Shown in pieces: positions 1,969 to 43,267 of a DNA stretch of 48,795 nt (position 1 is the stretch's first letter; each line of letters opens with the position of its first letter). The notes beneath the pieces were generated by a model. That model was given only the letters and a program-made list of their open reading frames with translations, was not told the DNA's origin and made no database searches. The DNA comes from an uncultured archaeon. Lineage in GTDB: Archaea; Aenigmatarchaeota; Aenigmatarchaeia; QMZP01. The stretch lies in contig CAYJTA010000001.1 of assembly GCA_964372825.1 (NCBI GenBank), positions 1 to 48,795 on the forward strand, given 5' to 3'. The position numbers and the translations under genes were made by a program.

Positions 1969-4900
1969 CTATTTAGTAAGCGTCAGGAACCTTACAACAA
2001 GCACTGCAACTATGAGGAAGGCTATAATCCCTATAGCTATTGCTTTCAGGCTGTCCTGCCTGATTATCTTTCCTGTCTCATTTATAGTGGCATTGAACGA
2101 CACATTCTTGGCAGGCTTGGGAAGGCTGCTCACATTTTCAGGTCCAGCAGCAGGAGATGGTGTGGCAGTTGCCGTTTCCTTGGGCGCCGGAGCCGGAGAT
2201 GATGTTGCTGTGGGTTTCGGGGCAGGAGAAGCCGTAGCTTTTGGCGTTTCTGCCGGCGCTGGAGCCGCTGCCTCAGGAATCATGAAGAAGAGCTGCACAT
2301 GGGAATTGAGTCCAAACACTCCCGGATAAGAGCCGTATGTCCTGCCATCGCTGTGGTAGGCTATGGCTAGCGCAGATGCTGTTTCTTTTGTGCTTTTCTC
2401 AAGTGGCTTCAGTTTCAGGCTGAAAGCGCCATTTCCGTTCGCATCCGCCTTGAACCTGTTCTCTGAGCCGTCAGACGCGCCGCATGGCTTGTCAACTATC
2501 CGTGCATTCGGCGGGAAGGTTATCCGTGAGCACCAGGCTGTATATGTTCCATTCGGCACAAGCTTCTGGAAAGACAGGATCATTTCAGCGCTACCCTCTG
2601 TTGCAGTATATGTCCCGCTTCCAGCCGCAGCAAGCCATTCCCCGAGGGTGAAGTCCAATGATTTCCCTTTGGCGAATGGCCCCAGAGGCTTTTTGCCCAG
2701 ACTGAAAGGGTCATGTGCGGTTGCTGTCGCAGTTGCATATGCGGTCTTTGCGAGATTTTCAGCTTTCTTGGAATCATTTACATCAGGCCTCATTACCTGC
2801 CCCTTTTTCGTTTCATTTGTTTCGATGAAGACGTCCTGCTCGGGCATGCCTGCCTGCATGTGGTTCACAAACTTGATCTCAATCTTTTCTGCTGCCGGCT
2901 TTAATGTCGGGGAAGGCGCAGGAGGGGCTGTCGGCGTTGCTGTGGGTGCCGGCTGAGGAGAAGGCGATGGTGCTGGCGTGACAGTTGTTGTAGGTGTTGC
3001 CTGCGGCGAAGGCGCTGCGCCTGGCGCCGCCACATTCAGCTTTATATCAGCTGACGATTCCGAATATTCGGACTTCGCAATGATCTTTGCAGGATAGGAT
3101 GCGGGGCTGACGCCATAGGGCGGCGACGCGTAAAGATATATGGTCGCCTCCTGTCCGCTGTCGAGGGAAAGCGCTTTTGTGCCAAGGTACAGCCACTGGG
3201 GGCCTTCAACGCTGATGGAGAATGTGTTTTTCTTGAGTCCTGTATTCTTTATCTTCACAGGCAAGGCCAAAGACTTCAGGGCCTCAATGTTCGCTGCAGC
3301 AGGGGAGGATGGCAATACTGAAGAGGAGTAGCATGCCGCAGTATCCCTTATCACAAGGCTCCCCTTGGCAGATGCCTTTGCGTTCTTGGACACTGCACTG
3401 GCTTCCAAGGTTCTGGTTTCTGCTTTCGCAGAGCATGGGACTGCCACAGGGTATTTCAGCGTTTCGCTTTTCCCTGCCTCAACCTTCACACCCTTCTTTA
3501 TGCCCACGCCAGAAATTTCAACATCATACTCGTCAGCAACCTTCCCATTGTTGGAAACGACAAGCCCGATCTCCGCAGTGTCGCATGCGCATGTTTCGGT
3601 TTTTTCCGGCACCACAGAAAGCCCGGAGGCAAAGCAGTTCTCTGCCGTCAGCAACGAAATGGTCTTGTCGGTTATTCTGTCCGCCTTTGCGGCCACATTG
3701 ACTATCTTGTCGCCCACGAAATCGGCCTTGACGCTCAGCTTGACGCTTTTCGCCTCTTTCGGCTTGAGGCTCAACTGGCTTTTCTCAAGGGTTCCCAGAT
3801 CCGCTGTTATGTCCACCGTTTCCTCTACGGCGCCTATGTTCTTGACTATGACATCATAAGTTATTGCCGTGCTGGAGCAGACAGTGCTCTGCACAGGTGA
3901 CATCACAACCACTATCCCCCTGCACTCATCCACATCTATGTTGAGATTGACAGTCTTCCTGTCCGAAAGTGAGCTCAGGGGCGTGATGCGGATGCTGAAA
4001 GTCTGTTTCCCGGTAGACAGGGGAGTGACAAAGATCTTCATCTGGTCTTTCTGGCCGCTGCCAAGGGTCAGGCTCGCCTTTTCGGCCTTTGCAAATGCCT
4101 GGTCAGACTCCACCGAATATGTGTCCTCGAGGCCAAGGTTGGACAGGCCAAGCGTGAAGTTCGCAGAGCTTCCGAGGCACAGCTTTGCTGTTGTGGGCTG
4201 CACGTCAGCAACAAAGCTATAGCAGTCCCTCAGCGTCAGGGAGAATGGGCTGCTGGTCGTCGCAAGGGTTGCCCTTGATCTGGCCGACAATACAAATTCC
4301 TGCTTTCCTACAATGTCCTTCGGCGGAGTAAGCGAGACAGCAATTATTTTGCTTTCCCCGGCATTGAGGGTAATGGCCGGCGTATTGATTGTCGTATAAC
4401 TCACAGCCTGGCCGCCCTTCGTGACAAAGAGGTCGAATGTTTCAGATACCTTGCCGATGTTTTTGACCTCAGCTGCATATGCCACGGGCTCTTTTTTCTC
4501 CGAACAGATATCCTTCTGGCTTTCCGATATGACAACAGTGACTCCTCTGCAAGAAAGCACATTCACATTGAATGTCTTAGTGACAGTCTCCCTGGTCACG
4601 CCAGAGAGCGCAGAAACCGATATGGCATATGTGCCTGGCTGGACATCCGGCACCGTTATCCATATGGCCTCAAGCTGCCTTGTCTCCATCGGCGGCACGA
4701 ACATTTCAGGCTGTATGAATCCGCTCCAGCCTGAAGGCAAAGAGAGGCTCAGAGAGTATGTGTCGCTCTTGTCCAGCTGATTCCTGATATACAGGGGCAC
4801 AACGCTCTTATCCAGAGGCGGCGTGTCCTTCAGCACAGTGGGACAGGTAGATGGCGTCTGCAACAGTTTCAGGTCGAGGTCGAAGCTGGCTGCGTTGGCG

Positions 4901-5595: not shown

Positions 5596-5862
5596 GCCCG
5601 GAGGGATTCTCGCCTTGATTTATCAGTTCAGTATTTGTATTGCCTTTCTTTGGATACCTTACCCTTTCTTTTGGAAAGAAAGGGTAGCTTCGAACCCTCG
5701 ACACCCTGGTGTCACCTGCAGCCATTCATCCTTCCGTCATATGGCTCCGCACTAAGAGCCAGGTGCTCTACCAGATTGCTCTACCCTCTTCCTTTGTAAC
5801 TTTTTCTTTTCCGTGCACGCTTTTCTTTTCCTAAAAGAAAAGGGTGCCTGAGCTACGGGCCC
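5593..5862 (-). tRNA. tRNA-Lys (anticodon CTT) with three introns: D-loop about 5778-5847, anticodon loop about 5710-5751, T-loop about 5607-5688
   Basis: Minus-strand exons join to GGGCCCG-TA-GCTCAG..TCTGGTAGAGC-A-CCTGG-CTCTTA(G/A)-CCAGG-GTGTC-GAGGG-TTCGAAT-CCCTC-CGGGCTC-A. Acceptor, anticodon and T stems all pair. TATA box about 30 nt upstream and a T-rich tract downstream. Confidence 0.85.
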
Positions 5863-10023: not shown

Positions 10024-10129
10024 ATTAAAGTGAAACAACTAAAGAATCTGCATTTTCAGAAAGATATATAAACAGTCCTGTTATCGTTTTTCCGTTAACG
10101 CTTTTTGATTTATTTCATGGAAAAGGGTT
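10024..10129 (+). repeat. 106-bp direct repeat, copy A (105/106 identical to 14096-14201)
   Basis: TTAAAGTGAAACAACTAAAGAATCTGCATTTTCAGAAAGATATATAAACAGTCCTGTTATCGTTTTTCCGTTAACGCTTTTTGATTTATTTCATGGAAAAGGGTTA. It covers the last 16 codons and the 3' flank of the minus-strand gene ending at 10081. Confidence 0.9.
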
Positions 10130-10575
10130 ATATGGACATTGTCCAGATGAGAAAACCTTTCCGGTGCCATGGTCGGGTCAATACCTATAACGACCTCGGG
10201 CGACCATATTTTTCCCACACTGTCATCGCCTCCAATAGCAGGATAGAATATGACATTGCCTGTGCTGGCAACATTTTTCTTGAGTTCCTTCAGAATGCAT
10301 AAATATGCTTGATCAATGATATTCGTTCTCTCGTCAGCATAGTTTAGCGTGTTCCTGATATGCACGGATATCTCATTTCCGTGAGGCATCACATAAAAAG
10401 GCACCCCATTATATACTCTGCAAAATCTATCGTCAATGCCGGGCTCCAGATCCTCGGTTCCGGCAGCCTCTTACAGCAGCCTGAAAGCAAAGTCTTTGTA
10501 CTTCCTTTCGAATATTTCTGCAAGCTTGTATAGCTTCTCAGCGTTTGAAAGCGGAACAAAAGCCTTTTGTTTCAT
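10081..10575 (-). pseudogene. hypothetical protein gene interrupted by one in-frame TAA (10471-10473)
   Basis: ATG at 10575 opens MKQKAFVPLSNAEKLYKLAEIFERKYKDFAFRLL, then TAA. The same frame continues EAAGTEDLEPGIDDRFCRVYNG into the track ORF 10081..10404, which starts at GTG. Verified codon by codon. Confidence 0.5.
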
Positions 10576-20590: not shown

Positions 20591-21862
20591 CTATTGTTTT
20601 AACCCGTATTGCCCTTTGTTTCCAAGCATCTCCTCTATCCTCAGAAGCTGGTTGTATTTGGCCGTTCTCTCGCCTCTTGCCGGTGCGCCTGTCTTTATCT
20701 GGCCAGCATTCCAGCCCACGGCCAGATCAGCTATGAAGCTGTCCTCCGTCTCCCCGGAGCGGTGGCTTATGACCACATTCCAGCCTGCTTTTTTTGCCAT
20801 CCTGAAGGCCTCCACGGCTTCTGTTATGGTTCCTATCTGGTTGAGTTTGAGGAGCAAGGCATTTGCTGCCATCATATCTATTCCTCTCGAAAGCCTCTTT
20901 ACATTTGTGACAAAAATGTCATCCCCTACAATCTGTATCTTCCTTCCTATGGCCTCTGTAACCTTTCCAAACCCGTCAAAATCCTCCTCATGAAGAGGAT
21001 CCTCTATGGAAGCAATGGGATATTCCTCGCATAGCTTCTCATAAAAGGAGGCCATATCTTCCGGCACAATTTTCTTGCCGTCAATATGGTAAAGCCCCTC
21101 TTTGAAGAAGCTGCTTGCTGCCGCATCCAGTCCCAGACTGATTTCTTTTGGGCCGTAGCCTGCAATTTCAATGGCCTTCATTATTGCACCTAATGCCTGC
21201 CTTGTGTCAGACATTGGGGGCGCAAATCCTCCTTCATCACCCACATTTATCGCGCCTTTCCCGTGTTTTTCTTTGAGATATCCCTTGAGGCTGTGATAGA
21301 TTTCCGATCCGGCCTTCAGAGCCTCTGAAAAGTTTTTCATGCCGGAGGGCATTATCATGAACTCCTGTATCGCAAGGCCGTTTCCCGCATGCATGCCGCC
21401 GTTTATGATGTTTATCATGGGGACAGGCAGTATGATGGCCTTTCCTTTATTCATTTCAGCAAGATGCTGGAACAACTCACGTCCAAGGCCTGCTGCAGCG
21501 CATCTCGCATTCGCCATGGAAACGGCAAGGATCGCATTTGCGCCTAAATTGGATTTGTTTTGCGTCCCATCGGTTTCTATCATTTTTTTATCCACTTCTT
21601 ACTGCCTTCTGGAATCCGTTCCAATCAAGAGTTTCGAAATCCTTGAATTCACATTCATGACAGCATTCCTTACACCTTTCCCATGGAATTCCTTTGTCCC
21701 GTCTCTCATTTCCAAAGCCTCATGCGTGCCTGTGCTCGCTCCTGACGGGACCATCGCTCTTCCTGAGCCTTTCCCTGAATAGACTTCGGCCTCGACAGTA
21801 GGCGTGCTTCTGGAATCAAGCACCTGCCTTCCGTGGACCTTGGTTATCCCGAATCCTTCCAT
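20591..21862 (-). pseudogene. eno: enolase interrupted by a single in-frame TAA (track position 21599-21601); alternatively a split gene
   Basis: The N-terminal piece (21599..21862) has [14 protein letters not shown] and [13 protein letters not shown]. The C-terminal piece (20591..21595) has [27 protein letters not shown] and [10 protein letters not shown]. Both are in the same frame, reading ...SRRQ-TAA-E-V(GTG)DKKMIETDG. Confidence 0.88.
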
Positions 21863-21933
21863 AATATCAATCTATTTTACGGTATAAAATACTTGTTGTT
21901 CTTTTGTAATTCCATTCCATTTGGAAAAGCTTC

Positions 21934-28717: not shown

Positions 28718-29665
28718 CTATTTCTTCAGCTTCCTGAGGATCTCCTCGCATCTCTCCAGATGGTAGCTTGCCATCAAATCCAGGTCTCTGGTGGCAAAAT
28801 CGTTCGCAAGCCTGTACTCCTCCTCCAGCTCGCTTCTGTCAACGCCATACACTGTTGGCATGGCCTTTTCTATTTTCGAAAGCCTGCCTCTGACATCTCC
28901 CGGAAAGCCATCCTGCTTTGGTGCTTTCATCCTGCCAGCGCCTCTGAGAATTCTTTTAATTGTTTCCGTAATACCGCCTGCTTTTTGCTTGCTCTCAATC
29001 TCGCTTTTTTCGCTCACCTTTTTCCCGGACATCTCTTTCCCGGCTTCGCCTTTCCATTCGCCTGGCATTGTGCCCTTTCCAAGATTCATATCTTTCTGTT
29101 TCTTTCCTTCAATCGCCTTCGGCCGCCTAAGCAGCGCCTTGAAGCTGAAGGCCGCCCCGAAAAGCCTGCCCATCTCCTGCCTGGCTTCTGTCCCCTTTGC
29201 CCTTGCTGTGAGCAGCCTGTCCTGCTCCTTCACCATTATGCCCCTGAATGTCTTCTCGTCTATCTTCCTCTTGAAATACTGGATCTCCGCGTTTTTCCTG
29301 CTGGCTATTATGGCCTGCTCCTCAGCCAGCAGCTGATGAAGGCTTCTCCTCAGCCTTGTGTAGGGGATTGCGAATGCTGTCATGAAGTAGCTGCCAAACG
29401 AAACAACAACAATGACAGCCACTATGGCGTTGAGGTTCGAATAGACAAATTTCAGGAAAGCCAGGCCCACGCTTTCCAGAGAGGCCTTTATGAACTCATC
29501 TTCAGTGGCGCTCATCAGCTTTTCAAGTGACTGCAGGTCATCAGATGATATGGCCTTTTCCGCCTTCTCAAGGGCTTTTTCTATCCTGCCTATCTTCTCC
29601 TTCAGGCTTTCGACGTCTATGCCCAGGTTTTCAAGTTCTATAGTAGCATTTTTCAGATCTGCCAA
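28718..29665 (-). CDS. coiled-coil membrane protein, function unknown; start uncertain (TTG)
   Basis: 315 aa. Helical N-terminal region, a central TM pair (VGLAFLKFVYSNLNAIVAVIVVVSFGSYFMTAFAI), and a Lys/Glu-rich C-terminal half. Confidence 0.55.
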   Translation of the reverse strand: MADLKNATIELENLGIDVESLKEKIGRIEKALEKAEKAISSDDLQSLEKLMSATEDEFIKASLESVGLAFLKFVYSNLNAIVAVIVVVSFGSYFMTAFAIPYTRLRRSLHQLLAEEQAIIASRKNAEIQYFKRKIDEKTFRGIMVKEQDRLLTARAKGTEARQEMGRLFGAAFSFKALLRRPKAIEGKKQKDMNLGKGTMPGEWKGEAGKEMSGKKVSEKSEIESKQKAGGITETIKRILRGAGRMKAPKQDGFPGDVRGRLSKIEKAMPTVYGVDRSELEEEYRLANDFATRDLDLMASYHLERCEEILRKLKK

Positions 29666-29755
29666 GGCCTTGGGATATTTGTTCCTTATAGTCTCCGCGA
29701 GCCTGTTGGGAAGGACTTTTATGAGTATGGAGGCTGTTTACTCTGCCTGACAATC

Positions 29756-32700
29756 CTAGTCGGAAAAAGTCACAACGGAAACATAATCGCAGGGTCTGGC
29801 AGTCAGAGGCACATGGATCTTTATCTGCATCGCTTTTTCAGTGCCCTTTATCCCTTCTATCTGCAATGAGCCCTTTTCAGGGAAGAACCTGCAGCATTCG
29901 CTCTGCACCCCCACTTCCACATCAAGCCTCTCGTTTCCAGTATTCCTTACCTTCCCGCTGATGAATGCATCCATCCCCTGCCTGATTTCGAAGGACAACT
30001 GATAGAGCAGAAGCTCAAAGGCCGCGATTTTTTCTGCCTCCCTCTGTATCTTCCTGCACGCACGCAGCATGATGTCGCATTCCAGGCCGCCTTCGCAGTC
30101 CCTGTCGCTTGCACATGCCTCGCCTTCCCTGCTCAGGTTCTTGGCTGCCCCTATTGCGCTGCTTGATGTCCCGCCGCCTACTGAAGCGCCAGAGGAGCCT
30201 GAAGAGGATGACTGCTGGGTTGTCGGCACCACAAAATCTGTCCCTGAATTCTTGAAAGAATCAGTGCCTGATGCAAAGATGCTGAATGACCCGCTGGCAT
30301 CAGCTGCCGATAACGATTGGTTATTTGAGTATATTCCGTCGCTCTCTTTGCTGAGAAGAGCAAACTGGTTATTGCACTTGTTGGTCTGGCACTGGACAAT
30401 CACAGAGGCGTCAGCTACAGGCTCTGATCTTATGTTCAGCACCCTCACCCTCATATTTATCTGCTGGCCTGAGCTTACAAATTCGTTTGCTATCGGGCTT
30501 ATTATCTGGGTTGTAAGGGATTTGTAGACCCCGAATGCCGCTGTTGCGACCCCCCTGTTTCCGCTCCTGCTGGCATTGGCATAGACCACATACGTCGCAC
30601 TGCTGCCTGAATCGGCATCGGGCTTGTCAGTTGCCTCTATCCTGTAGTATGCCGAACCCTGAACAGAGCCGTTGGCCACAGTGGCATTTGCCGCAGACCT
30701 GTCGAGGATGATGCTGAGGTTGAAGCCTGTCACATTCTCATTGTTGGCATTTCTGACGATCACATTGATGCTGACATTCTCGCCCTTGTTGTACGAGCTG
30801 TATGGAGTTGACACGTTTACAGTGTACACATCTGTCACATTGAAGCTGCCTGCGGATGATGAGTTTATGTTTCCCGACATGTCGGAAGCAAAAACAATGA
30901 ACGAGAAATTGCCGGTCTCATTCGCATTTGTGAAATCAAGAGAATAGAGACTGTTCCTTATCTGCGAGGCGGAATGGTTTTGCCTCCCTCCCGAAGGGTG
31001 CGTCACCTGCACCGTGACAGAATTTATTATCGAATTGTCCGTCACATTGGCGGATATGGTATTGGTTTCGTACAGGTTAAGGGTGCTGTAGGCCTTGGAG
31101 ACGGAGTTTATCTGCGGCCTCTGGCTGTCGCTGGCTATGACAATCACGAGCATGCTACTGTTTGCGGGCTGGTGGTAGGTGGAGTTGACAGTGAAGTTGA
31201 CATACGCCTGGCCTGCAGCCGTGCCGTTTACTGTGAAGCTTACCTTCCTCGGTTTTGTGCCTTCAAACGTCACATTGCCGATGTTCCTGAAGTTTTCCGT
31301 AAGATTAATCACGCCTGATGATGAAGAATATGCCGATACATTTATCAGATCCCCATTGCTCGGGGTAAGGAGCATGCTTATGTTGGCAGGCTGGCCAAGA
31401 GGTATGGATACCTGGCTGCCATTGCCGTCAGCAGGCTCTATGCTTATGTTTCCTAGCGGCACAGAAAAGGTTAAGTTTTTCGTGACAGTGATCCTCATTA
31501 TGGCTGTAACAGAGACTGTGTAATTTCCTGACCTTGTGACGTTCCTGTATGCTCCTGAGTACTGCAGACTGCTGCCTGAAACACGTGAGAGAGATACAAT
31601 CTCAGTAACATTCCCCGGCTTCATAATCAGCGCCCTCACGCTCTGCACGGAGCTAGCATTCCCGCTTATGTTGGCCTGTATTGCAAGGGTATTGTTCACG
31701 GGCAGGCTTGAATTGGAAAGGGATACATTGAACTGGAGCTCCTTTACCTCCAGCTGCATGGTCGTATTCAGCGATCCGATGTTTCCCTGGCTGTCGTTCG
31801 CATATTCTGCAAGTATCGTGTAGTTCCTGCTGTCCTGGGTCTGGTTTAACACAAGCTCCCATGTCCCTGATTGGAGGCTGCCGGTGAGTAAGGAGAGGCT
31901 CATGTTGGTGAGGTTGCCATAGCTGTCGTTCACCATCACCCATGCGGCTGTCACATTGGCATTGTCTGTAGCAGCAAGAGTGACTGAAGATGACTCATTG
32001 ACATTGACAATATTCAGCGAGATGTCAGCCGAGGATATCTCAGGCCTCTCGGCGTCAAGGGCAGTCACGATCACGCTATTGCTGGCATTGAACATGCCTG
32101 AGAGGCCATCTATGGCCGTTGCAGTGAAGTTGAAGATGCCAGCTGCCGGCAGGGATATGTTCCAGCTTGCTGTCCTGCTGCTATTGGATGGTATGCTTTC
32201 AATGATCGTATAGTTGTTTCCTGCATCCGAAGAGAATGATGCATTGACATAGTATGCCTTTCCGCTTCTCCCCTCTTTGGCATCATTAGTGACAGTGACG
32301 CTGAAGTTGAAGTAACCGCTCTGGTTGAATACGCATGCTCCAAGGCCATTGCAGAGCATCGAGGTTATGTTAAGGAGAGGGGAGATGGTTGTGGTATAAT
32401 CAGAAATGTTTGTCTCTCCCGCGCCTATTGTCCATGAAGAGTTTGTATCCTGAACTTTTGCCGATGCGCTGGTGTTTGCTGTTATATTGATTGAGGAGAC
32501 AGCAGTCAGAGGGGTTGCAGTTATCAGGTTTCCTGCATAAATCATGGAGCATGCTGAGCCGCATTCATACCGGCTTATATTGGAATAGGAATCAGGCAGG
32601 AAGAGGTTAAAACTTTTATTGGCCATGCTCCTGTTGAAATTGATGGATAGCAGGATGGAGCCGTTTGTGGCCGAATCTATTGTTTTTGATCCGTTTATTG

Positions 32701-35700
32701 TCGCCGACAGCGTCGAATTGACAACAAGGAAGCTCCTGTTTAGCTGGGTCTCATTGAGGCCCGCTGCATTCCCCATGCTGTCATTCGCGAACAGCATCGT
32801 GATTGTGTGCCTTCCTGTCGCATTTGTATTCGCAAATGCCAGGGAAAAGTTTGCTTCTCCTGAATAAGGAGACATGCTGAAGTTCCTCCTCATGCCGGAA
32901 TAGTTCAGTTCCACGATGGCGTGGCTGATGCCGCCTGCGTCTGACAAATTGGCCATTATCCTGATGCTCTCGAAGGGATGCACCCTGGCATCGCTGAAAA
33001 TCGCATCTGTCACATTGAATGATATGTTGCCTGATGTCGGAGGGGCGTTGTCAAGGGTATAAGCCGCATACGTCGAAATTGTATTTCCTGCGGAATCAGT
33101 TGCATATAATGTGACATTTCTTTGCCCATTGCCTGAAAAGGCCGGACTGAAACCGATCCCGCTCGGGAAGCTTGTGTTTGTCCCGTTTCCGTTGTCGAAA
33201 CGAAGGGAAGCCATGCCTGAGGCAGAGTCGGAAACTGCCACAGTAAGCTGTGTGGAGGATGTTATCCTGCTGCCGTTTGCCGGGCTCGTGGAAATGAATG
33301 ATGGCTTAGTGAGGTCAACAGAAAAATTCCTGCCTGCTGAGGCTGTCAGTCCGACAGAGTCATTGGCCTGCACTGTCACCTCGCACTTTCCCATGCCCTC
33401 TGTCTGGCAGTAGGAGATATTTGCGAGGAAAGGCTGGCCGCATGGAATTGTTATCCACCCTGATTCTGAGCTTCCTGCAATTCTGGACATGCAGGATAAA
33501 TTGCTGGTATCTGCAGCGGAGAAGGTCACATTAAAACTGTTTGACTGCCAGCTGTTGGCGGCAGGAGATGCGATTGATACAGAAGGCTGTGTGTTGTCAG
33601 TGCTCAGGTATATACTGCTTGTATTGCTGTTTCCAGCTTCATCTGTTGCTGAAACCTCTATCATGCAGTTCGAAGCATTGTTGTCGGAGCAGAGCTGGGT
33701 GCTGAAGCTGATGTTGGACGCGCAGCTCGTGTTGAATGGGCCATTCGTTCCTGACTGGGCGAAGCTCCAGCTGCAGGAGCCCAGCCTGACGGCATCTGAG
33801 GCAGAGAAGCTCACATTTATCGCGCGTGTCTGTAGGCTAGCATTGGAAGGGGATGTTATGGAAACAGATGGCTTCTGCCTGTCTATGTATGCCCAGCTCC
33901 TGTCTGTCGCCGATGCTGTCGTGTTGTCTATTGAAGTGAAATTGACAGAATAGTTTCCATCCGCAAGGCTCTGGATGTTTATTGTATTTGTAAATGAACA
34001 TGTAGTTGAGCTGATGCCCGCTACCGAATAATTGGCTATCAATGTCGAATTGTAAATATAGTAGCTGCACTCCGTCAGTATCCTGCCTATTACTGCGGAG
34101 CCTCTCATGTCGAGGCTGAAATTGCCGCCTAATATCTTTTCTCTGGGAAAGACTATCGCAGCAGTGGGCTTCTGATTGTCGACTGAAAATGTAGCGTTCC
34201 TGCTTGCCGCATTGCTCGCATTGTCAGAGGAGTTTACCACAAGGACAAATGTTGCGACAGTATACGGATTGCTGTCGAACGTCGAGTTCCAGTTAGGATA
34301 TGTGAGGTTGCCGCTGGAAATCGTCTGGCTCATGTTGCTTGCGTTGAGGATGCTGTATGTCGCATTGGTTGCTCCTGCCCCCAAGTCGGTTATGTTGGCC
34401 CTTATCTCGATTGCGCCTGACCTGCTGCTCCCATCGGGAGGGTTGAGAATCGTTATTGAAGGCGCCTTCCTGTCTATCCTTATCAGGCTGCTGTTTTTAG
34501 TGCTCTCCAGATTGCCCACGCTGTCATTGCTCCTGTACCGGACATATATCTGGCACTCCTCACCCTGGCCGCATGCTGCTGTTGCCACTGCTCCTGCCGT
34601 TGCCGGCATGCACTCAGGCTGGGTTGTCCTGTAAGTGCAATATAATGTGACACTGCATGCAGTCACGTTGTCTGTGCAGTTCAGCCTTACAGCCTGGTCG
34701 CTTGTTTTCCAGTCAGGGGATGTATAATTGTCTGAAGTGTTTGGCGGCGTCACATCCAGCGTGTAAAAAAGGAGGGTATTGTTCGCATTTCCTGCGCTGT
34801 CATTCGCATATACTGTGAGGTTCCTGAGGCCTTCCCCTGTGAACCCCGGGCTGAATGAGATATTGTTTGTTATGCTGAAATTCGTGCCGTTGCCGTTATT
34901 GGCAAGAGCATTAGCGCCCGAAACGGCATCAGAAAAGGATATGGTGGCTGTTGTACTGCCTGTTATGTTGGAGTTGTTTGCAGGGGAGAATGAAGAGAAA
35001 GAGGGCGCTGTATTGTCAGCAATAAAGGCAAAAAGCGTCGTGTTTGTATTTCCTGCGGAATCATTCGCATACGCCCTCAGAGTCCTGCTGCCTTCGGCCG
35101 TATAGCCAGGATTGAAAGAGACATTGTCTGCAAAGCTCGTATTTGTTCCATTGCCGTTATCAAACCAGCTGGCGGCTATGCCTGAAAATGATTCTATTAA
35201 ATCTATCCTTATGTTCCTTGCAAAGTTTATATAGGAGCCGTTGGCAGGATCCATCAGATTGAATGCAGGGGCCGTGTTGTCGACGGCAAACGAATAAAGG
35301 GTCCAGTTCTGGTTGCCCGAATTGTCCATGAAGCTTGCATTCAGCGTCTTGTTCCCTTCGCTCGCATAACCTGGATTGAATGCCGCGCCGCTGGAAAAGC
35401 CTGTTTTTGTCCCATTGCCGTTGTCGAATGTGTGGCCTGAGCTTGCAACGCCTGAAAGGCTGTCGTTCAGCGCTATAGTGAGGTTTGCCGAAGAGGTTAT
35501 GAATGAGTTGTTGGCCCTCGATATCGATACTATATAGGGAGGCTGGCGGTCGATGGTAATCGTATCACTCAGTGTGGTTGTCTGCACATTCCCTGCTGTA
35601 TCTTTCACCTGCACATAAATTGTTTTCAGGCCATCGGAATTCGTGCAGCCATAACTTGAATTTGTGAAATTGAAATCAGAATATGTTGTAGTCCATGCTA

Positions 35701-37012
35701 CCCAGTTTGCCCAGTTTGAGTTGTCGCATGAGAAGCGCATGTAATCAGGGTTGCCATCCGATGCGTTCTGGTCAGCTATATAGAGTGCAGGCTTCTCTTT
35801 GTTCGTATATGTTGGCCCGGGGTCAGAATCGCTTTCTATGGTTATTCTTGAAGCAGTAGGAGCTGTCCTGTCCACGCTAACCGTCACATTGTCGAACTTC
35901 CCCCAGAAGCCGTCAAAGTCCTTGCAGTGCACGGCTATTGTATGGTTCCCCTCTGAAAGGCCTGCAGTATTTATAGTTATATTTGCAATCTCTGTGGCGC
36001 TGCTGAATGACCCGTCTTTTGCCCCAAGGGCTGTTCCTGAGCCGAAAGAGCCTGTTGTGTCCACAAAATACTCCGCTGCCGTTATGTTCGAATACCTCTG
36101 GGTTGTGTTGCATGTGACGTTAAGCACAGTCGTGCTGTTTGTCAGATTTGGCGTCAGCCTTGCCCCCTTAGAATCTGGAGACACGAGGTAACCTAGAACC
36201 TGCTTCATCAGGCTTCGTCGCGTGGAGTTTCCGCTGCTCCTTTCAAAGGCAAAGCCGAAGAGTAAGGTTTTGTATGATGCCGTCTTTGCTCTTATGGCGG
36301 CATATCCGCCCTCAAAGGCGTCGCTACAGATCCAGTAATATAGGCCAGAAATTAAATAAAGGCTGCAGTATTTGAATACATTGGCTGAAAGCGAATCCTT
36401 TCCGTCTATAATGTCCGGATTGTCAGCACCGGCGTTAAGGATGTTTATCGTGAAGTCATCGCCTATGGGGTCTTTTTTTGTTGTGTCGGCATCCCTCACG
36501 TAATCATCATAAAAGGCATCATCTGCTATGTATTCAGCATGGAGGTAGCTCTCAAAGAAGCTGTCCACATGGCCTATGTCAGACGCTATGTCCTGGCCTG
36601 TGAGGAACAGCTTCCCGCCATTGTCCAGGTACCACTGGAGGTTCTGCCTGTCTGCTGCTGTCAGGGTCGGATAGTTGAAATCCCCGCCTACCGCTCCTGT
36701 ATCGAAGGCCGTAAACCAAATAACTATGTCATAGTCCCTCATCAGGCTGGTGCAGCTTGCCGTTGTCGTATTGTATCCCGGGCCGTCGCCTGTCTGAGAC
36801 GAAACCACGCACTTGTCGAAAGAATAGCCGTTCCCCTGTATGGCCCATGCATAATATTTCTCAAGCTGGGAGTTTGTGCATTCCACCCCTCCCGGACAGA
36901 AATGGGCATCCTCGACAAGAAGTATTTTCGCCTTGGGGGAGTCAGAGTATACTATATTCGATAGAAGGGCAAAGGCAAAGGCCAAAATAAGGAGAAATCT
37001 GAATAAGCGCAT
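29756..37012 (-). CDS. giant secreted surface protein/adhesin candidate (2418 aa) with a Sec signal peptide, many Ig-like repeat modules and very dense N-glycosylation sequons; no C-terminal anchor
   Basis: Uninterrupted 7.26-kb ORF. Signal peptide is MRLFRFLLILAFAFALLSNIVYS. Repeated modules of the type TAPxF..SPANxSxIT....I..SDxxSG......NGNGTN.S......F.PG...EG.R.L..YA.DSAGN. The motif GLKTIYVQVKDTAGN is typical of Ig-like surface repeats. By eye I counted about 35 N-x-S/T sites in the first 760 aa. Confidence 0.9.
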   Translation of the reverse strand: MRLFRFLLILAFAFALLSNIVYSDSPKAKILLVEDAHFCPGGVECTNSQLEKYYAWAIQGNGYSFDKCVVSSQTGDGPGYNTTTASCTSLMRDYDIVIWFTAFDTGAVGGDFNYPTLTAADRQNLQWYLDNGGKLFLTGQDIASDIGHVDSFFESYLHAEYIADDAFYDDYVRDADTTKKDPIGDDFTINILNAGADNPDIIDGKDSLSANVFKYCSLYLISGLYYWICSDAFEGGYAAIRAKTASYKTLLFGFAFERSSGNSTRRSLMKQVLGYLVSPDSKGARLTPNLTNSTTVLNVTCNTTQRYSNITAAEYFVDTTGSFGSGTALGAKDGSFSSATEIANITINTAGLSEGNHTIAVHCKDFDGFWGKFDNVTVSVDRTAPTASRITIESDSDPGPTYTNKEKPALYIADQNASDGNPDYMRFSCDNSNWANWVAWTTTYSDFNFTNSSYGCTNSDGLKTIYVQVKDTAGNVQTTTLSDTITIDRQPPYIVSISRANNSFITSSANLTIALNDSLSGVASSGHTFDNGNGTKTGFSSGAAFNPGYASEGNKTLNASFMDNSGNQNWTLYSFAVDNTAPAFNLMDPANGSYINFARNIRIDLIESFSGIAASWFDNGNGTNTSFADNVSFNPGYTAEGSRTLRAYANDSAGNTNTTLFAFIADNTAPSFSSFSPANNSNITGSTTATISFSDAVSGANALANNGNGTNFSITNNISFSPGFTGEGLRNLTVYANDSAGNANNTLLFYTLDVTPPNTSDNYTSPDWKTSDQAVRLNCTDNVTACSVTLYCTYRTTQPECMPATAGAVATAACGQGEECQIYVRYRSNDSVGNLESTKNSSLIRIDRKAPSITILNPPDGSSRSGAIEIRANITDLGAGATNATYSILNASNMSQTISSGNLTYPNWNSTFDSNPYTVATFVLVVNSSDNASNAASRNATFSVDNQKPTAAIVFPREKILGGNFSLDMRGSAVIGRILTECSYYIYNSTLIANYSVAGISSTTCSFTNTINIQSLADGNYSVNFTSIDNTTASATDRSWAYIDRQKPSVSITSPSNASLQTRAINVSFSASDAVRLGSCSWSFAQSGTNGPFNTSCASNISFSTQLCSDNNASNCMIEVSATDEAGNSNTSSIYLSTDNTQPSVSIASPAANSWQSNSFNVTFSAADTSNLSCMSRIAGSSESGWITIPCGQPFLANISYCQTEGMGKCEVTVQANDSVGLTASAGRNFSVDLTKPSFISTSPANGSRITSSTQLTVAVSDSASGMASLRFDNGNGTNTSFPSGIGFSPAFSGNGQRNVTLYATDSAGNTISTYAAYTLDNAPPTSGNISFNVTDAIFSDARVHPFESIRIMANLSDAGGISHAIVELNYSGMRRNFSMSPYSGEANFSLAFANTNATGRHTITMLFANDSMGNAAGLNETQLNRSFLVVNSTLSATINGSKTIDSATNGSILLSINFNRSMANKSFNLFLPDSYSNISRYECGSACSMIYAGNLITATPLTAVSSINITANTSASAKVQDTNSSWTIGAGETNISDYTTTISPLLNITSMLCNGLGACVFNQSGYFNFSVTVTNDAKEGRSGKAYYVNASFSSDAGNNYTIIESIPSNSSRTASWNISLPAAGIFNFTATAIDGLSGMFNASNSVIVTALDAERPEISSADISLNIVNVNESSSVTLAATDNANVTAAWVMVNDSYGNLTNMSLSLLTGSLQSGTWELVLNQTQDSRNYTILAEYANDSQGNIGSLNTTMQLEVKELQFNVSLSNSSLPVNNTLAIQANISGNASSVQSVRALIMKPGNVTEIVSLSRVSGSSLQYSGAYRNVTRSGNYTVSVTAIMRITVTKNLTFSVPLGNISIEPADGNGSQVSIPLGQPANISMLLTPSNGDLINVSAYSSSSGVINLTENFRNIGNVTFEGTKPRKVSFTVNGTAAGQAYVNFTVNSTYHQPANSSMLVIVIASDSQRPQINSVSKAYSTLNLYETNTISANVTDNSIINSVTVQVTHPSGGRQNHSASQIRNSLYSLDFTNANETGNFSFIVFASDMSGNINSSSAGSFNVTDVYTVNVSTPYSSYNKGENVSINVIVRNANNENVTGFNLSIILDRSAANATVANGSVQGSAYYRIEATDKPDADSGSSATYVVYANASRSGNRGVATAAFGVYKSLTTQIISPIANEFVSSGQQINMRVRVLNIRSEPVADASVIVQCQTNKCNNQFALLSKESDGIYSNNQSLSAADASGSFSIFASGTDSFKNSGTDFVVPTTQQSSSSGSSGASVGGGTSSSAIGAAKNLSREGEACASDRDCEGGLECDIMLRACRKIQREAEKIAAFELLLYQLSFEIRQGMDAFISGKVRNTGNERLDVEVGVQSECCRFFPEKGSLQIEGIKGTEKAMQIKIHVPLTARPCDYVSVVTFSD
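34742..35551 (-). repeat. three tandem modules of about 90 aa inside the giant protein (aa about 488-757); a fourth related copy lies further downstream
   Basis: The three modules QPPYIVSISRANNSFITSSANLTIALNDSLSGV...DNGNGTKT...NPGYASEGNKTL...DNSGN, TAPAFNLMDPANGSYIN...DNGNGTNTSF...NPGYTAEGSRTLRAYANDSAGN and TAPSFSSFSPANNSNITG...NNGNGTNFS...SPGFTGEGLRNLTVYANDSAGN align. The later copy is KPSFISTSPANGSRITS...DNGNGTNTSF...YATDSAGN. Confidence 0.8.
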
Positions 37013-40175: not shown

Positions 40176-41414
40176 TCAAGGCTCCAGCAGCTCGCTGAGA
40201 TTATATCTTGCTGCCGTGCCATTGTCAAGCCTCAGCCATGCCTGCATCCCCCTGACAGCCTTTCCCGGATATGATACTGTGGAAAAATAAAGATCATCCA
40301 CCATGCTCTTCCCGGTATCCACTGACAGCCCCAGCGCCTGTAGCTCAGGGATGTTCACGAAGCTCTCAAGGCCGTTGGAGCTCTGGTTTGTTATGTTGTC
40401 CTCCAGCCTTTTCAGGAAGCTCATGCCATTGCCGGCAAAACCGAAATAGAGGCCGTTGTCGACCGCACCTGTGACAGGAAGGTGCCATGCAGACTTGGTC
40501 TTGTTGTCAAGGTAGAGCTGTGAATAATTTGCCAGCTTCAGGGTCTGGTTGACTATGCTTACGGCATTGGGGGCAGACTTTATATAGCAGCCGGTGGCAG
40601 GGGCATCGGCAGTCTCCGAAAGCACGCCTGCGAAGCCCGAAAGGCCTGAAGCATTGTAAACGACAAGTATGCTGCTCCCATTTGCCTGGCTCGCATTGAA
40701 CGATATGGAGCCCGAGCAGCTGGCCCCTGAAGCCGAGGCATTGCCTGAAACAAGCTTCCTTGCCGCATATCCCATGCCATATTTTTTCAGCAGCCTTTTC
40801 GAATAGCCATTGGTGTGAAGAGGATGTAATGGATCCTCGAACTCATATAATGCCACATTGGCAAGGCTCACCCTGCCTCCGGAAAACCTTATCCTTCCCG
40901 TAACATCAGTGACATTAATGCTCACCCTGACAGAGAAATTCATGGTGAAGGGATCCGCTAAAGACACGGAGAGGCTGCTGTAGGAAAGGGCTTTCTGGAG
41001 GTCAACGGTCACGCCAAGGATCCTTGTTCTCCAGTCATCGAGGGTATTGTTCTCCATTATGTAGATGTCGGCTGAGTTCAAAGTGCCGTTAAGCATGAGC
41101 TCCGCAATCCCTCCTGTTGAGCTGTTCAGCCCTTGCCCGTAGATTATCACATTGTTTATCGACGCCAGTATGGCCCTTTTGGCAGCAATCTCCACCGCCC
41201 TGTCAAAATCCTCAGCCATGGATCTCGACAGCTCCCCCACCTGATCCGAGACAACCTTTTCCATGCTTCCGGCGCTCTGTTCCTGCGCGGCAAAAAGGAA
41301 GCCTGAAGCGAAAAGGATGACAGGTATGGCAAGGAAGGCCGCTATTATCGAGTACACCTGCCCGTCCATGGACTTTTGCCCGTCCGTTGCCTTTCGCCTT
41401 CTGCATTCTTTCAT
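40176..41414 (-). CDS. extracytoplasmic sequon-rich protein with an N-terminal TM / possible class III signal peptide
   Basis: 412 aa. Possible start is MDGQ/VYSIIAAFLAIPVILFASGFLF. Many N-x-S/T sites. The start overlaps the upstream stop (TGATGA), which implies translational coupling. Confidence 0.7.
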   Translation of the reverse strand: MKECRRRKATDGQKSMDGQVYSIIAAFLAIPVILFASGFLFAAQEQSAGSMEKVVSDQVGELSRSMAEDFDRAVEIAAKRAILASINNVIIYGQGLNSSTGGIAELMLNGTLNSADIYIMENNTLDDWRTRILGVTVDLQKALSYSSLSVSLADPFTMNFSVRVSINVTDVTGRIRFSGGRVSLANVALYEFEDPLHPLHTNGYSKRLLKKYGMGYAARKLVSGNASASGASCSGSISFNASQANGSSILVVYNASGLSGFAGVLSETADAPATGCYIKSAPNAVSIVNQTLKLANYSQLYLDNKTKSAWHLPVTGAVDNGLYFGFAGNGMSFLKRLEDNITNQSSNGLESFVNIPELQALGLSVDTGKSMVDDLYFSTVSYPGKAVRGMQAWLRLDNGTAARYNLSELLEP

Positions 41415-42355
41415 CAGCTCAGCACCCTTATCTGGAGCCTTGCAGGCCCCCAGAGAGTAGGCACGCCTGCTATGCTCTGGTTCTCAAGCTTCACGTTGGT
41501 GGCAACCGCAAACGGCCCGAGCTCCTGCCTCAGCCTCTCCTCTGCATCGCTTTGGGCCGCAGTGAAATTCGGGAAGACATCATTATATCCTACCGCAGAC
41601 TTCAGGAATGCCCTCTTCTCCCCCAGGCTCTTGTCAGGGTCTACCCCATATCCATAGGTGAAGTTGAGCTCAAATTTGTTGTATCCCAGATTCAGCACTC
41701 CCTGGCTGAGGTTGGAGGAGTAGCCGAACCTCGCAAACTCCTTGATCAGGGGGTCGCTGCTTCCATTCGCCGGATCGTGGTTGTAGAGGATGATGCCATT
41801 GGCCTTGGCCCTCTGGAGGGGATTCTGTGTTGTCCTGAAGAGCCAGGCAAGCTGCCAGATTGCTGAGAGCGGCGTGGCATTACCCGCAAAGGTGACGTTC
41901 CACCTGATATATCTTTTGAAATCAGGAAAGCCGGTGTCAGGATCGCTGGACGCTTCAAGCTGCACGGGAGAGGAGACATCAATATACAGGAATGGTGTCG
42001 ATGTCGTGTGCTTCACCTCCACATAGCTGCTGTTAAGGATTCTTCTCTCGTATCCCAGCGCTTCCAGCGAGCTGTATGTGTCTATCTCGGCGATGAACCA
42101 GAAGAACCTGCTGTTGAGCATACTGTAGCTGGTTTTGGATTCCACAACGGGCCTTATATCCGTATCGTTCCATAATACTGTGCCATTGGCAGGCTGCTTC
42201 TTGCTGATAATGGTCTCATTTCCCTTCCAGCCGAACTTGAGTGTCACGTTCTTCACCTGCGTGTTTTTGGTGAGGTTGATGAAGACGCCGAGGGAGGATA
42301 CATTGCCGCTGATGAATATGGGCTTCTTGTAGAGGATGGATGCGTTGCTCTTCAC
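41414..42355 (-). CDS. sequon-rich extracytoplasmic-type polypeptide lacking its own signal peptide; probably the continuation of 42449..43267 across an in-frame TAG
   Basis: 313 aa from a GTG. About 15 N-x-S/T sequons but no hydrophobic N-terminus. 31 sense codons connect it in-frame to the TAG of the upstream gene. Confidence 0.6.
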   Translation of the reverse strand: MKSNASILYKKPIFISGNVSSLGVFINLTKNTQVKNVTLKFGWKGNETIISKKQPANGTVLWNDTDIRPVVESKTSYSMLNSRFFWFIAEIDTYSSLEALGYERRILNSSYVEVKHTTSTPFLYIDVSSPVQLEASSDPDTGFPDFKRYIRWNVTFAGNATPLSAIWQLAWLFRTTQNPLQRAKANGIILYNHDPANGSSDPLIKEFARFGYSSNLSQGVLNLGYNKFELNFTYGYGVDPDKSLGEKRAFLKSAVGYNDVFPNFTAAQSDAEERLRQELGPFAVATNVKLENQSIAGVPTLWGPARLQIRVLS

Positions 42356-42448
42356 CTCCTCATAATAGAATCTTTCCGTGTGCGGCTTTGACTGGAACTC
42401 GGTGGTGGTATAATTTATTATCCAGTGGGTCGCTCCATCATCGCCTGC

Positions 42449-43267
42449 CTAATACCCCCCTGAGCCGAACATGCCCTCCAGAACTATCACGTTCATCCCT
42501 GTTGTCAGCTGTGAAGTGAGGTTGTCCAGCTTCTTGGTACCTGTCCCTGAGGTGTAGAATTTCCCGTTGATGTACACTTTGAACGGATTGTCCGTGTATG
42601 AAGTCTCGACGAAGCCCGAAGCTGACGTTATGTTCGCGTCAGCTGGTATAGGTATGAAATACGTCACATTCACCACATTGTTGTTGGTCCCTCCTGTCGG
42701 TTTCCGGACGCTGCTTGAAACCACATCGCCCATGACAATCAGGGTGGTGTTCTTCCTTATGTCAAGCGCAAAGGCCCTTGCAACATAGCCCGATATGGGC
42801 TTGCCTCTCGTCACGCCGGAGACAATTGTGTTAAGCTTGGAAAGGTATGTAGAATTTGCCGTCTTGTTGTAGAGCATGTCAGTGTCCATCAGTATCTCAT
42901 AGCCGTACTTGGTGCCGTTCAGCAGTTTCTCAGCAACTTCCTTTGTGATGTTCGTCGCATGGGACACATTCCCTTCAGCCCAGAAAGCCCCTATGATGTC
43001 CATCAGGGTCTTGTCCATGTCCTCCCCTGTTATCAGCCCCTGGGATATGTACTGGCTTATCGATGAGAGCTGCTGCATCTCTGAAACCTTCGCCTTCTTG
43101 AAGATATTCAGGAGGTCCTTGGCCACATAATAGTCCCTCTCATATGCAAGTTCTGTGCTGGTTCCCGTGATCTGGATCGTCGCCACAAACCCGGCCAGGA
43201 ACAGCAGTATGCCTATGGCCACAAGGCTGTCCAGGCTGAGCACGAAGCCTTTCAACGCAATTTCCAT
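42449..43267 (-). CDS. class III signal peptide (pilin-like) protein, large
   Basis: MEIALKG/FVLSLDSLVAIGILLFLAGFVATI resembles the leader of the 145..1182 product. The body is sequon-rich. It ends in a TAG that is in-frame with the next ORF. Confidence 0.7.
   Translation of the reverse strand: MEIALKGFVLSLDSLVAIGILLFLAGFVATIQITGTSTELAYERDYYVAKDLLNIFKKAKVSEMQQLSSISQYISQGLITGEDMDKTLMDIIGAFWAEGNVSHATNITKEVAEKLLNGTKYGYEILMDTDMLYNKTANSTYLSKLNTIVSGVTRGKPISGYVARAFALDIRKNTTLIVMGDVVSSSVRKPTGGTNNNVVNVTYFIPIPADANITSASGFVETSYTDNPFKVYINGKFYTSGTGTKKLDNLTSQLTTGMNVIVLEGMFGSGGY

What the first reader, a model, noticed from the sequence alone, without database searches (positions are those of the whole stretch)
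20591..21862. Enolase carries a single in-frame TAA after residue 87, with all catalytic motifs otherwise intact
The two ORFs are in the same frame and read ...[40 protein letters not shown]. This is collinear with the usual enolase sequence (..LIG.D...[22 protein letters not shown]), and the stop falls at a variable position. Downstream motifs (SHRSGETED, [10 protein letters not shown]) are intact, so there is no sign of long-term decay. Possible explanations are a very recent nonsense mutation, a base-call error, a two-piece enzyme restarted at the GTG two codons later, or programmed readthrough. Enolase is normally essential in glycolysis and gluconeogenesis.
Basis: partly seen in the sequence, partly recalled or inferred. 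Interest (0 to 1): 0.6.

Follow-up and report, generated by a model that had tools for sequence, protein, structure and literature searches.

The report
Enolase gene with one stray stop
A normal-looking, single-copy enolase gene of a small hot-spring archaeon (Aenigmarchaeota, assembled from a metagenome) carries one premature TAA; this draft genome has about ten such isolated stops, so it is most likely a sequence error or a very recent mutation, not a new mechanism.

Summary
The minus-strand enolase (21862..20591) has one in-frame TAA at 21599-21601 after residue 87, then GAA and GTG. Everything else is intact.

The genome is a fragmented DPANN (Aenigmarchaeota) MAG: 1.15 Mb, 162 contigs, 79 ten-N gaps. 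It has only this one enolase.

The two closest genomes have Glu at the site (GAG and GAA), so one G->T change made the stop. None of 24 relatives with an enolase has an internal stop.

On its own branch the gene shows the strongest purifying selection of the three (S 39.5, N 13.5). It has no unique change at any column invariant in 19 other enolases.

Compared with the whole sister genome, this MAG has about 10-11 isolated in-frame stops in conserved genes; the sister has 2-3. They include single-copy ribosomal protein uS2 and two more genes in this window. That equals only about 4.5e-4 changes per site, or 0.2% of the neutral expectation.

TAA ends 24% of long ORFs. aRF1 motifs are canonical. 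No RNA structure follows the stop, and no credible suppressor tRNA was found.

Verdict: an ordinary tip-of-lineage nonsense lesion, either a consensus error or minor allele, or a very recent null.

The parts
21602..21862 (-). Enolase codons 1-87 (first part of the N-terminal domain: three beta strands and the first long helix)
   Evidence: Enolase_N positions 1-84, E=4e-29; model secondary structure
21599..21601 (-). In-frame TAA at codon 88. The sister genome G001 has GAG and GCA_053536595.1 has GAA (Glu), so one G->T change from GAA gives the stop
21593..21595 (-). GTG two codons after the stop. It is the only conceivable restart codon; no Shine-Dalgarno-like motif was seen and nothing was tested
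   Evidence: function is inference only
20591..21598 (-). Enolase codons 89-423 plus the TAG terminator: the rest of the N-terminal domain and the complete TIM-barrel domain with all catalytic residues
   Evidence: Enolase_C 413 bits; 2PA6 M. jannaschii enolase, E=2.5e-154; pLDDT 91.5
21863..21888 (-). AT-rich TTTATA element about 20 nt upstream of the ATG, in the 71-nt gap after the proline-dehydrogenase-like gene. It is possibly a TATA box for a leaderless or short-leader mRNA
   Evidence: the archaeal-promoter reading is inference
10471..10473 (-). Second isolated in-frame TAA of this window, in a conserved 279-aa hypothetical gene. The sister has GAA (Glu35), with 90.6% identity around the site
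42449..42451 (-). Third isolated in-frame stop of this window: TAG in a 618-aa pilin-like surface protein. The sister has GAG (Glu274), with 79% identity over 614 aa

Best explanation
This is the organism's single, ordinary enolase gene (phosphopyruvate hydratase). It carries one G->T change that turned Glu88 (GAA) into TAA at the very tip of this lineage. The stop has no programmed role. Most likely the living population makes a full-length enzyme, and the TAA is a consensus error or a minor allele that entered a fragmented, probably low-coverage metaSPAdes-type MAG. The same kind of isolated stop occurs in about ten other conserved genes of this assembly. Shown: the single-base origin, the absence of decay, the absence of a second copy, and the genome-wide excess of isolated stops, including in uS2. 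Inferred: that the cause is technical or a minor allele rather than a fixed null.
For: (1) Both closest genomes have Glu at the site (GAG in G001, GAA in GCA_053536595.1), in the same RadB / proline dehydrogenase / enolase / LysRS neighbourhood.
(2) None of the 24 relatives with an enolase has an internal stop.
(3) Changes unique to the window's branch are S=39.5, N=13.5. That N/S ratio is lower than in the two intact relatives (37.5/22.5 and 48/42). dN/dS is 0.16-0.18, and no column invariant in 19 other enolases is changed.
(4) The gene is single-copy. Its pathway partners PGK and a PEP-synthase/PPDK-type enzyme are intact.
(5) In the whole-genome comparison with the sister, about 10-11 conserved genes of this MAG carry one isolated in-frame stop, against 2-3 in the sister over a similar number of aligned codons.
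(6) One of these genes is single-copy ribosomal protein uS2, stopped at a conserved Tyr29. That cannot be a fixed null in a living cell.
(7) The stops amount to about 4.5e-4 changes per site, or 0.2% of what neutral evolution would give on this branch. Their residue and stop-type spectrum fits random point changes.
(8) The assembly is fragmented: 162 contigs, N50 8.5 kb, 79 ten-N gaps and a 2.5-kb length cut-off. This matches a published hot-spring Aenigmarchaeota pipeline (PMC8407114).
(9) Excess internal stops track assembly error and low coverage (PMC11017572).
Against: No independent assembly of this species was found. The enolase stop lies in the longest contig (48.8 kb, no N gaps, far from contig ends), where coverage should be best, and that contig holds 3 of the roughly 11 stops. 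De Bruijn assemblers rarely fix random read errors at good coverage. Clear frameshifts are not in excess compared with the sister once N gaps are removed. An error process would therefore have to be substitution-only.
Confidence: 0.6

Rival explanations
1. The TAA is a real allele, at majority or fixed frequency. Enolase was knocked out very recently, as an early step of the reductive gene loss typical of host-dependent DPANN archaea.
For: 7 of 31 related genomes lack enolase altogether, so the lineage can live without it. This MAG shows no pyruvate kinase and no metalloenzyme-type phosphoglycerate mutase, so the lower pathway is already patchy. The stop sits in the best-assembled contig. Another stop-bearing gene in the window, at 10081-10575, also loses similarity to the sister at a repeat boundary, as a real pseudogene would.
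Against: There is only one lesion, and constraint on the gene's own branch is not relaxed. The same kind of stop hits single-copy uS2, where a fixed null is not viable. PGK and PEP-synthase/PPDK-type genes are intact.
Confidence: 0.25
2. The enzyme is made in two pieces. Ribosomes terminate at TAA and restart at the GTG 3 nt downstream (termination-reinitiation). The 87-aa and 334-aa chains then assemble into an active enolase.
For: A GTG lies two codons after the stop, and both pieces are fully conserved. Restarting at closely spaced stop and start codons is an established mechanism in archaea and bacteria (my own knowledge, not checked here).
Against: The split is not shared by any relative. 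It cuts inside the N-terminal domain, at the cap of helix 87-98, and not at the domain boundary near residue 130. No ribosome-binding motif precedes the GTG. The other stops in this genome have no nearby restart codon, so one common cause fits better.
Confidence: 0.06
3. Stop codons are read through or suppressed in this organism, either by a programmed signal at this site or by a genome-wide leaky or suppressor tRNA system. A full-length enolase is then made despite the TAA.
For: About ten otherwise well-conserved genes, including essential uS2, carry single in-frame stops, mostly TAA or TAG. tRNA detection in this genome is very incomplete: 12 Rfam hits, probably because the tRNAs are rich in introns. 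A suppressor tRNA therefore cannot be excluded.
Against: TAA ends 203 of 838 long ORFs. Nonsense changes reach only 0.2% of the neutral expectation, so they are strongly selected against. aRF1 keeps the NIKS, YxCxxxF and GGQ motifs. The 100 nt after the stop do not fold better than shuffles (z=+0.6). No stop is shared with the sister species. The only suppressor-like ARAGORN calls need 400-800-nt 'introns' and look spurious.
Confidence: 0.06

Closest known systems
Archaeal enolase (phosphopyruvate hydratase), e.g. Methanocaldococcus jannaschii enolase, PDB 2PA6
   Same: It aligns end to end (E=2.5e-154) and has Enolase_N plus Enolase_C domains. All catalytic and metal-binding residues are present. 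The predicted fold is confident (pLDDT 91.5, pTM 0.91).
   Different: One in-frame TAA at codon 88, where 2PA6 has Arg94 and the nearest relatives have Glu.
Spurious 'internal stop' pseudogenes caused by assembly error or low coverage (Cooley and Wright 2024, PMC11017572)
   Same: The lesion is a single substitution-type stop in an otherwise perfect gene. The assembly has an excess of such stops compared with a close relative (about 11 versus 2-3) and is highly fragmented.
   Different: Not proven here, because no reads were available. The stop lies in the longest, gap-free contig.
Recent pseudogenes in reductive genomes of symbionts (DPANN archaea, insect endosymbionts)
   Same: The genome is small and probably host-dependent. 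Enolase is absent from 7 of 31 relatives, and the glycolytic pathway is incomplete (PMC8407114).
   Different: There is only one lesion and no relaxed selection on the branch. Essential uS2 carries the same kind of stop.
Naturally split genes of Nanoarchaeum equitans and programmed stop-codon readthrough (Sec, Pyl, leaky stops)
   Same: A conserved protein is encoded in two collinear open frames separated by a stop.
   Different: The break is not conserved in relatives and not at a domain boundary. There is no recoding signal, TAA is a normal terminator, and the release factor is canonical.

Membership tests
Enolase (PF03952 + PF00113) | N-terminal enolase domain followed by the C-terminal TIM-barrel domain, collinear with known enolases | tested here: met
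   Enolase_N 1-84 and 87-131; Enolase_C 413 bits; 2PA6, residues 2-416 against 7-416
Enolase (PF03952 + PF00113) | Catalytic and metal-binding residues: Ser of SGASTG, His158, Glu167, Glu210, Asp246, Glu287, Asp314, Lys339, His367, Lys390 (window numbering) | tested here: met
   All fall in invariant columns of the 20- and 28-sequence alignments
Enolase (PF03952 + PF00113) | One uninterrupted reading frame | tested here: not met
   TAA at 21599-21601; 'stops_inside 1 TAA' for this genome only
Enolase (PF03952 + PF00113) | Enzyme activity (2-phosphoglycerate to phosphoenolpyruvate) | not testable with these tools
   Needs expression and assay
Decaying pseudogene | Several lesions and/or relaxed selection (raised dN/dS) on the gene's own branch | tested here: not met
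   One lesion only. Branch-unique changes are S 39.5, N 13.5, the lowest N/S of the three genomes. No change at invariant columns
Decaying pseudogene | A second intact copy takes over the function | tested here: not met
   Only one Enolase_C match in the 89.7%-complete genome
Programmed stop-codon readthrough or codon reassignment | The stop is conserved at the same site in orthologues | tested here: not met
   24 relatives have no internal stop. The two closest have GAG and GAA
Programmed stop-codon readthrough or codon reassignment | The codon is not used as a normal terminator, or the release factor is altered | tested here: not met
   TAA ends 203 of 838 ORFs of at least 200 aa. aRF1 has the NIKS, YxCxxxF and GGQ motifs
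Programmed stop-codon readthrough or codon reassignment | Stimulatory RNA structure downstream of the stop | tested here: not met
   MFE -16.4 against a shuffle mean of -18.3 kcal/mol, z=+0.60
Programmed stop-codon readthrough or codon reassignment | A suppressor tRNA (anticodon UUA or CUA) is present | tested here: inconclusive
   No credible one was found. Only 12 tRNAs are detectable by Rfam, so the tRNA set is far from complete
Naturally split gene (two-piece enzyme) | The split is conserved in related genomes | tested here: not met
   one open frame in all relatives
Naturally split gene (two-piece enzyme) | The split lies at a domain boundary or a tolerated surface site | tested here: not met
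   Codon 88 is the N-cap of helix 87-98, inside the N-terminal domain, which ends near residue 130
Naturally split gene (two-piece enzyme) | The second piece has its own translation start signal | tested here: inconclusive
   A GTG lies 3 nt after the stop, with no clear ribosome-binding motif. Reinitiation was not tested

The most novel reading that the evidence does not exclude
This DPANN archaeon tolerates isolated in-frame TAA/TAG (and TGA) codons in about 2% of its conserved genes, including uS2 and enolase. It would do so by decoding them at useful efficiency, for example through an undetected intron-rich suppressor tRNA or unusually leaky termination. The stops would then be real and the proteins full-length.
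Probability: 0.05. Interest if true: 0.8.

Novelty: already known. Interest (0 to 1): 0.15.

Why it matters
As it stands, the finding matters mainly as a quality flag. This MAG carries about ten isolated in-frame stops, so automated annotation will mis-score several genes as missing or truncated. These include enolase, uS2, a diphthine-synthase-like methylase and a phosphoglucomutase-type enzyme. That would bias metabolic reconstructions of Aenigmarchaeota. If reads showed the stops to be real and fixed, there would be two consequences. The enolase case would be a snapshot of gene loss at its first step in a symbiont. The uS2 case would force a search for stop suppression in DPANN archaea.

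Tried and rejected
**Read-level and independent-assembly checks**
- A metagenome-wide exact pattern around the stop, with N at the first stop base, gave no hit.
- Exact look-ups of the neighbouring ProDH and RadB proteins found no other assembly of this species.
- The protein search found nothing closer than 85% identity apart from the window's own 330-aa call.

**Genome-wide scans for interrupted genes**
- A codon-usage scan was abandoned. Antisense 'shadow' frames score like genes.
- The third-codon-position filter also fails for one antisense frame.
- What worked was greedy longest-ORF selection, plus the sister genome as reference, plus a check for a covering ORF in another frame.

**Other ideas tested**
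- Frameshift excess: 20 candidates, of which 8 of the 10 sites inspected were runs of exactly 10 N at scaffold joins. Only two clear 1-nt homopolymer indels were verified.
- A G->T (oxidative damage) bias or a Glu-specific pattern: 4 of 7 single-step stops are G->T. This is not significant given codon usage and kappa of about 1.
- Proximity of the stops to N gaps or contig ends: none.
- ARAGORN 'tRNA-Pyl(cta)', 'tRNA-SeC' and 'tRNA-Stop' calls: all need 400-800-nt introns or have poor arms, so I judged them spurious.

Full report
**Observation.** The minus strand of 20591-21862 holds one enolase gene broken by a single in-frame TAA. ATG at 21862 opens 87 codons ending ..[13 protein letters not shown] lies at 21599-21601, then GAA, then GTG at 21593-21595. 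From the GTG, 334 codons (the 20591..21595 ORF) continue to TAG at 20591-20593. Pfam places the 87-aa piece on Enolase_N positions 1-84. It places the 334-aa piece on Enolase_N 87-131 followed by a full Enolase_C (413 bits). The two ORFs are therefore collinear parts of one gene.

**Organism and context.**
- The window is the largest contig of a 1.15-Mb assembly: 162 contigs, N50 8.5 kb, smallest contigs just over 2.5 kb, 79 runs of exactly ten N, 89.7% complete.
- The nearest named protein is from a Candidatus Aenigmarchaeota MAG.
- The neighbours are core genes: aIF2-gamma, rhomboid, ScpA/ScpB, LysRS, an AglB-like protein, a proline-dehydrogenase-like protein, RadB, a Tyr/Trp-tRNA synthetase, a PilB-type ATPase and pilin-like proteins.
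- The 2.5-kb cut-off and N-joined scaffolds match the metaSPAdes pipeline described for hot-spring Aenigmarchaeota MAGs (PMC8407114). That paper also reports no pyruvate kinase but a PEP synthase in most such MAGs.
- I find the same here. PGK is present and intact. A PPDK_N-type (PEP-synthase/PPDK) 962-aa ORF is present. Pyruvate kinase and a metalloenzyme-type phosphoglycerate mutase were not found.

**Is there a second copy, and what do relatives show?**
- The genome has a single Enolase_C match.
- Of 31 related genomes, 24 have an enolase hit and 7 have none. No relative has an internal stop.
- The same-genus genome G001 (85% aa identity) reads ..IDSRNQ-E-QVDRKM, with GAG at the site.
- A third genome, GCA_053536595.1 (84% identity), reads ..MDSRKQ-E-EVDKKM, with GAA.
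- All three genomes share the order RadB / proline dehydrogenase / enolase / two small ORFs / LysRS.
- The ancestral codon was therefore Glu, and one G->T change from GAA gives TAA.
- In a wider alignment the column is variable (E/R/A/K/Q/W). It lies between the nearly invariant Q87 and the invariant D91.

**No decay.**
- Pairwise dN/dS for the gene is 0.16-0.20.
- Changes unique to each of the three lineages are S=39.5, N=13.5 for the window, 37.5/22.5 for G001 and 48/42 for GCA. The broken copy therefore has the lowest N/S on its own branch.
- It has no unique residue at any column that is invariant in the 19 other enolases aligned.
- All catalytic and metal-binding positions are intact.
- The read-through protein aligns end to end with M. 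jannaschii enolase 2PA6 (E=2.5e-154). It folds confidently as an enolase (pLDDT 91.5, pTM 0.91).
- The stop is therefore very young relative to a branch of dS about 0.25, or it is not real.

**The stop is not alone.**
- I fetched the whole sister genome and compared the two genomes both ways with tblastn.
- After removing antisense shadow frames, about 10-11 conserved genes of this MAG carry one isolated in-frame stop. The stops are 6 TAA, 3 TAG and 1 TGA, plus a doubtful cluster of three TAG on C80. The reverse comparison finds 2-3 in the sister over a similar number of aligned codons (196,000 against 184,000).
- Two of the stops are in this window. One is TAA at 10471-10473 in a conserved 279-aa gene, where the sister has GAA. 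The other is TAG at 42449-42451 in a 618-aa pilin-like protein, where the sister has GAG. Earlier first-reader notes had flagged both.
- Elsewhere the stops hit a diphthine-synthase-like TP_methylase, a phosphoglucomutase/phosphomannomutase, a DUF7502 protein, an HTH membrane protein and a BNR/PKD surface protein.
- Most tellingly, single-copy ribosomal protein uS2 reads CTPYMKHFV-TAA-KIREDGLG, where the sister has a conserved Tyr. A fixed null of uS2 is not compatible with life. At least some of these stops must therefore be errors, minor alleles or decoded codons.

**How many stops would be expected?**
- In the aligned codons, 3.9% of all single-base changes create a stop.
- A neutral branch of 0.25 changes per site would give about 5,700 stops. 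The 10-11 observed correspond to about 4.5e-4 changes per site, or 0.2% of that.
- Nonsense codons are thus strongly purged in this lineage. What remains is the amount expected from a small residual error rate or from un-purged very recent mutations.
- The residues replaced (E x4, Y x2, K, S, H, R) and the stop types fit random point changes, given codon usage and kappa of about 1. The apparent G->T excess is not significant.
- The stops are not near N gaps or contig ends.
- Most apparent frameshifts are ten-N scaffold joins. Any error process would therefore be mainly substitutional.
- An excess of internal stops is a documented marker of assembly error and low coverage (PMC11017572).

**Tests of the exotic readings.**
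- Code change or readthrough: TAA ends 203, TAG 246 and TGA 389 of the ORFs of at least 200 aa.
- aRF1 has the NIKS, YxCxxxF and GGQ motifs.
- The 100 nt after the stop fold no better than shuffles (z=+0.6).
- No stop is shared with the sister species.
- No credible suppressor tRNA was found. tRNA detection is poor in this genome, with only 12 Rfam hits.
- Two-piece enzyme: the GTG 3 nt after the stop could in principle serve termination-reinitiation. However, the break is at the N-cap of helix 87-98 inside the N-terminal domain. It is unique to this genome, and the other stops have no nearby start.

**What could not be done.** No independent assembly of this species was retrievable.

**Verdict.** This is an ordinary enolase gene with one tip-of-lineage nonsense change.
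- I put about 0.6 on a consensus error or minor allele in a fragmented MAG.
- I put about 0.25 on a real, very recent knockout. That is plausible in a DPANN lineage where 7 of 31 relatives lack enolase, and because the stop sits in the best contig.
- I put about 0.06 each on a two-piece enzyme and on readthrough.

Interest is low. The useful by-product is that this assembly has an excess of isolated in-frame stops, which should be checked against reads before any metabolic inference is drawn from it.

Noticed in passing
window 10081-10575 (-), stop at 10471-10473: A conserved 279-aa hypothetical gene (90.6% identical to the sister over residues 1-149) has an in-frame TAA where the sister has GAA. 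It also loses similarity to the sister exactly at 10129. Similarity resumes at 10028 in another frame.
   Followed up: partly
window 41414-43267 (-), stop at 42449-42451: A 618-aa pilin-like, sequon-rich surface protein is one ORF in the sister (79% identity). Here it is split by TAG at the sister's Glu274 (GAG).
   Followed up: partly
window 28718-37012 (-): The giant 2418-aa ORF plus the following 315-aa ORF align to a single 2735-aa ORF in the sister genome. Two stops and low similarity mark the junction (around 29740-29758).
   Followed up: no
own genome, contig C60:5535-6158 (+), stop at 5619: Single-copy ribosomal protein uS2 carries an in-frame TAA at a conserved Tyr (codon 29). The flanks are identical to the sister at 15 of 15 and 14 of 15 residues.
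   Followed up: partly
own genome, whole: There are 79 runs of exactly ten N. Flanking bases are often duplicated across the gap (e.g. CTGATGT-N10-CTGATGT), which mimics frameshifts in conserved genes such as Pelota and several others.
   Followed up: yes
own genome and window: Only 12 tRNA matches by Rfam in the genome, 8-15 by ARAGORN, and none in the window. This is far too few for an 89.7%-complete genome and suggests intron-rich or otherwise unusual tRNA genes.
   Followed up: partly
window 20591-21862 compared with relatives: Outside its own genus, this enolase is closest to Thermofilaceae/Thermoprotei enzymes (about 63% identity). Most genomes of the same DPANN family carry an enolase only about 35% identical to it, and four same-order genomes also give a second, much weaker match (24-29% identical). 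This looks like horizontal acquisition of a TACK-type enolase.
   Followed up: no
own genome C70:~4325-4331 and C26:~10235-10242: Two genuine 1-nt homopolymer indels (an A-run and a G-run) shift the frame of genes that are about 82% identical to the sister's.
   Followed up: partly
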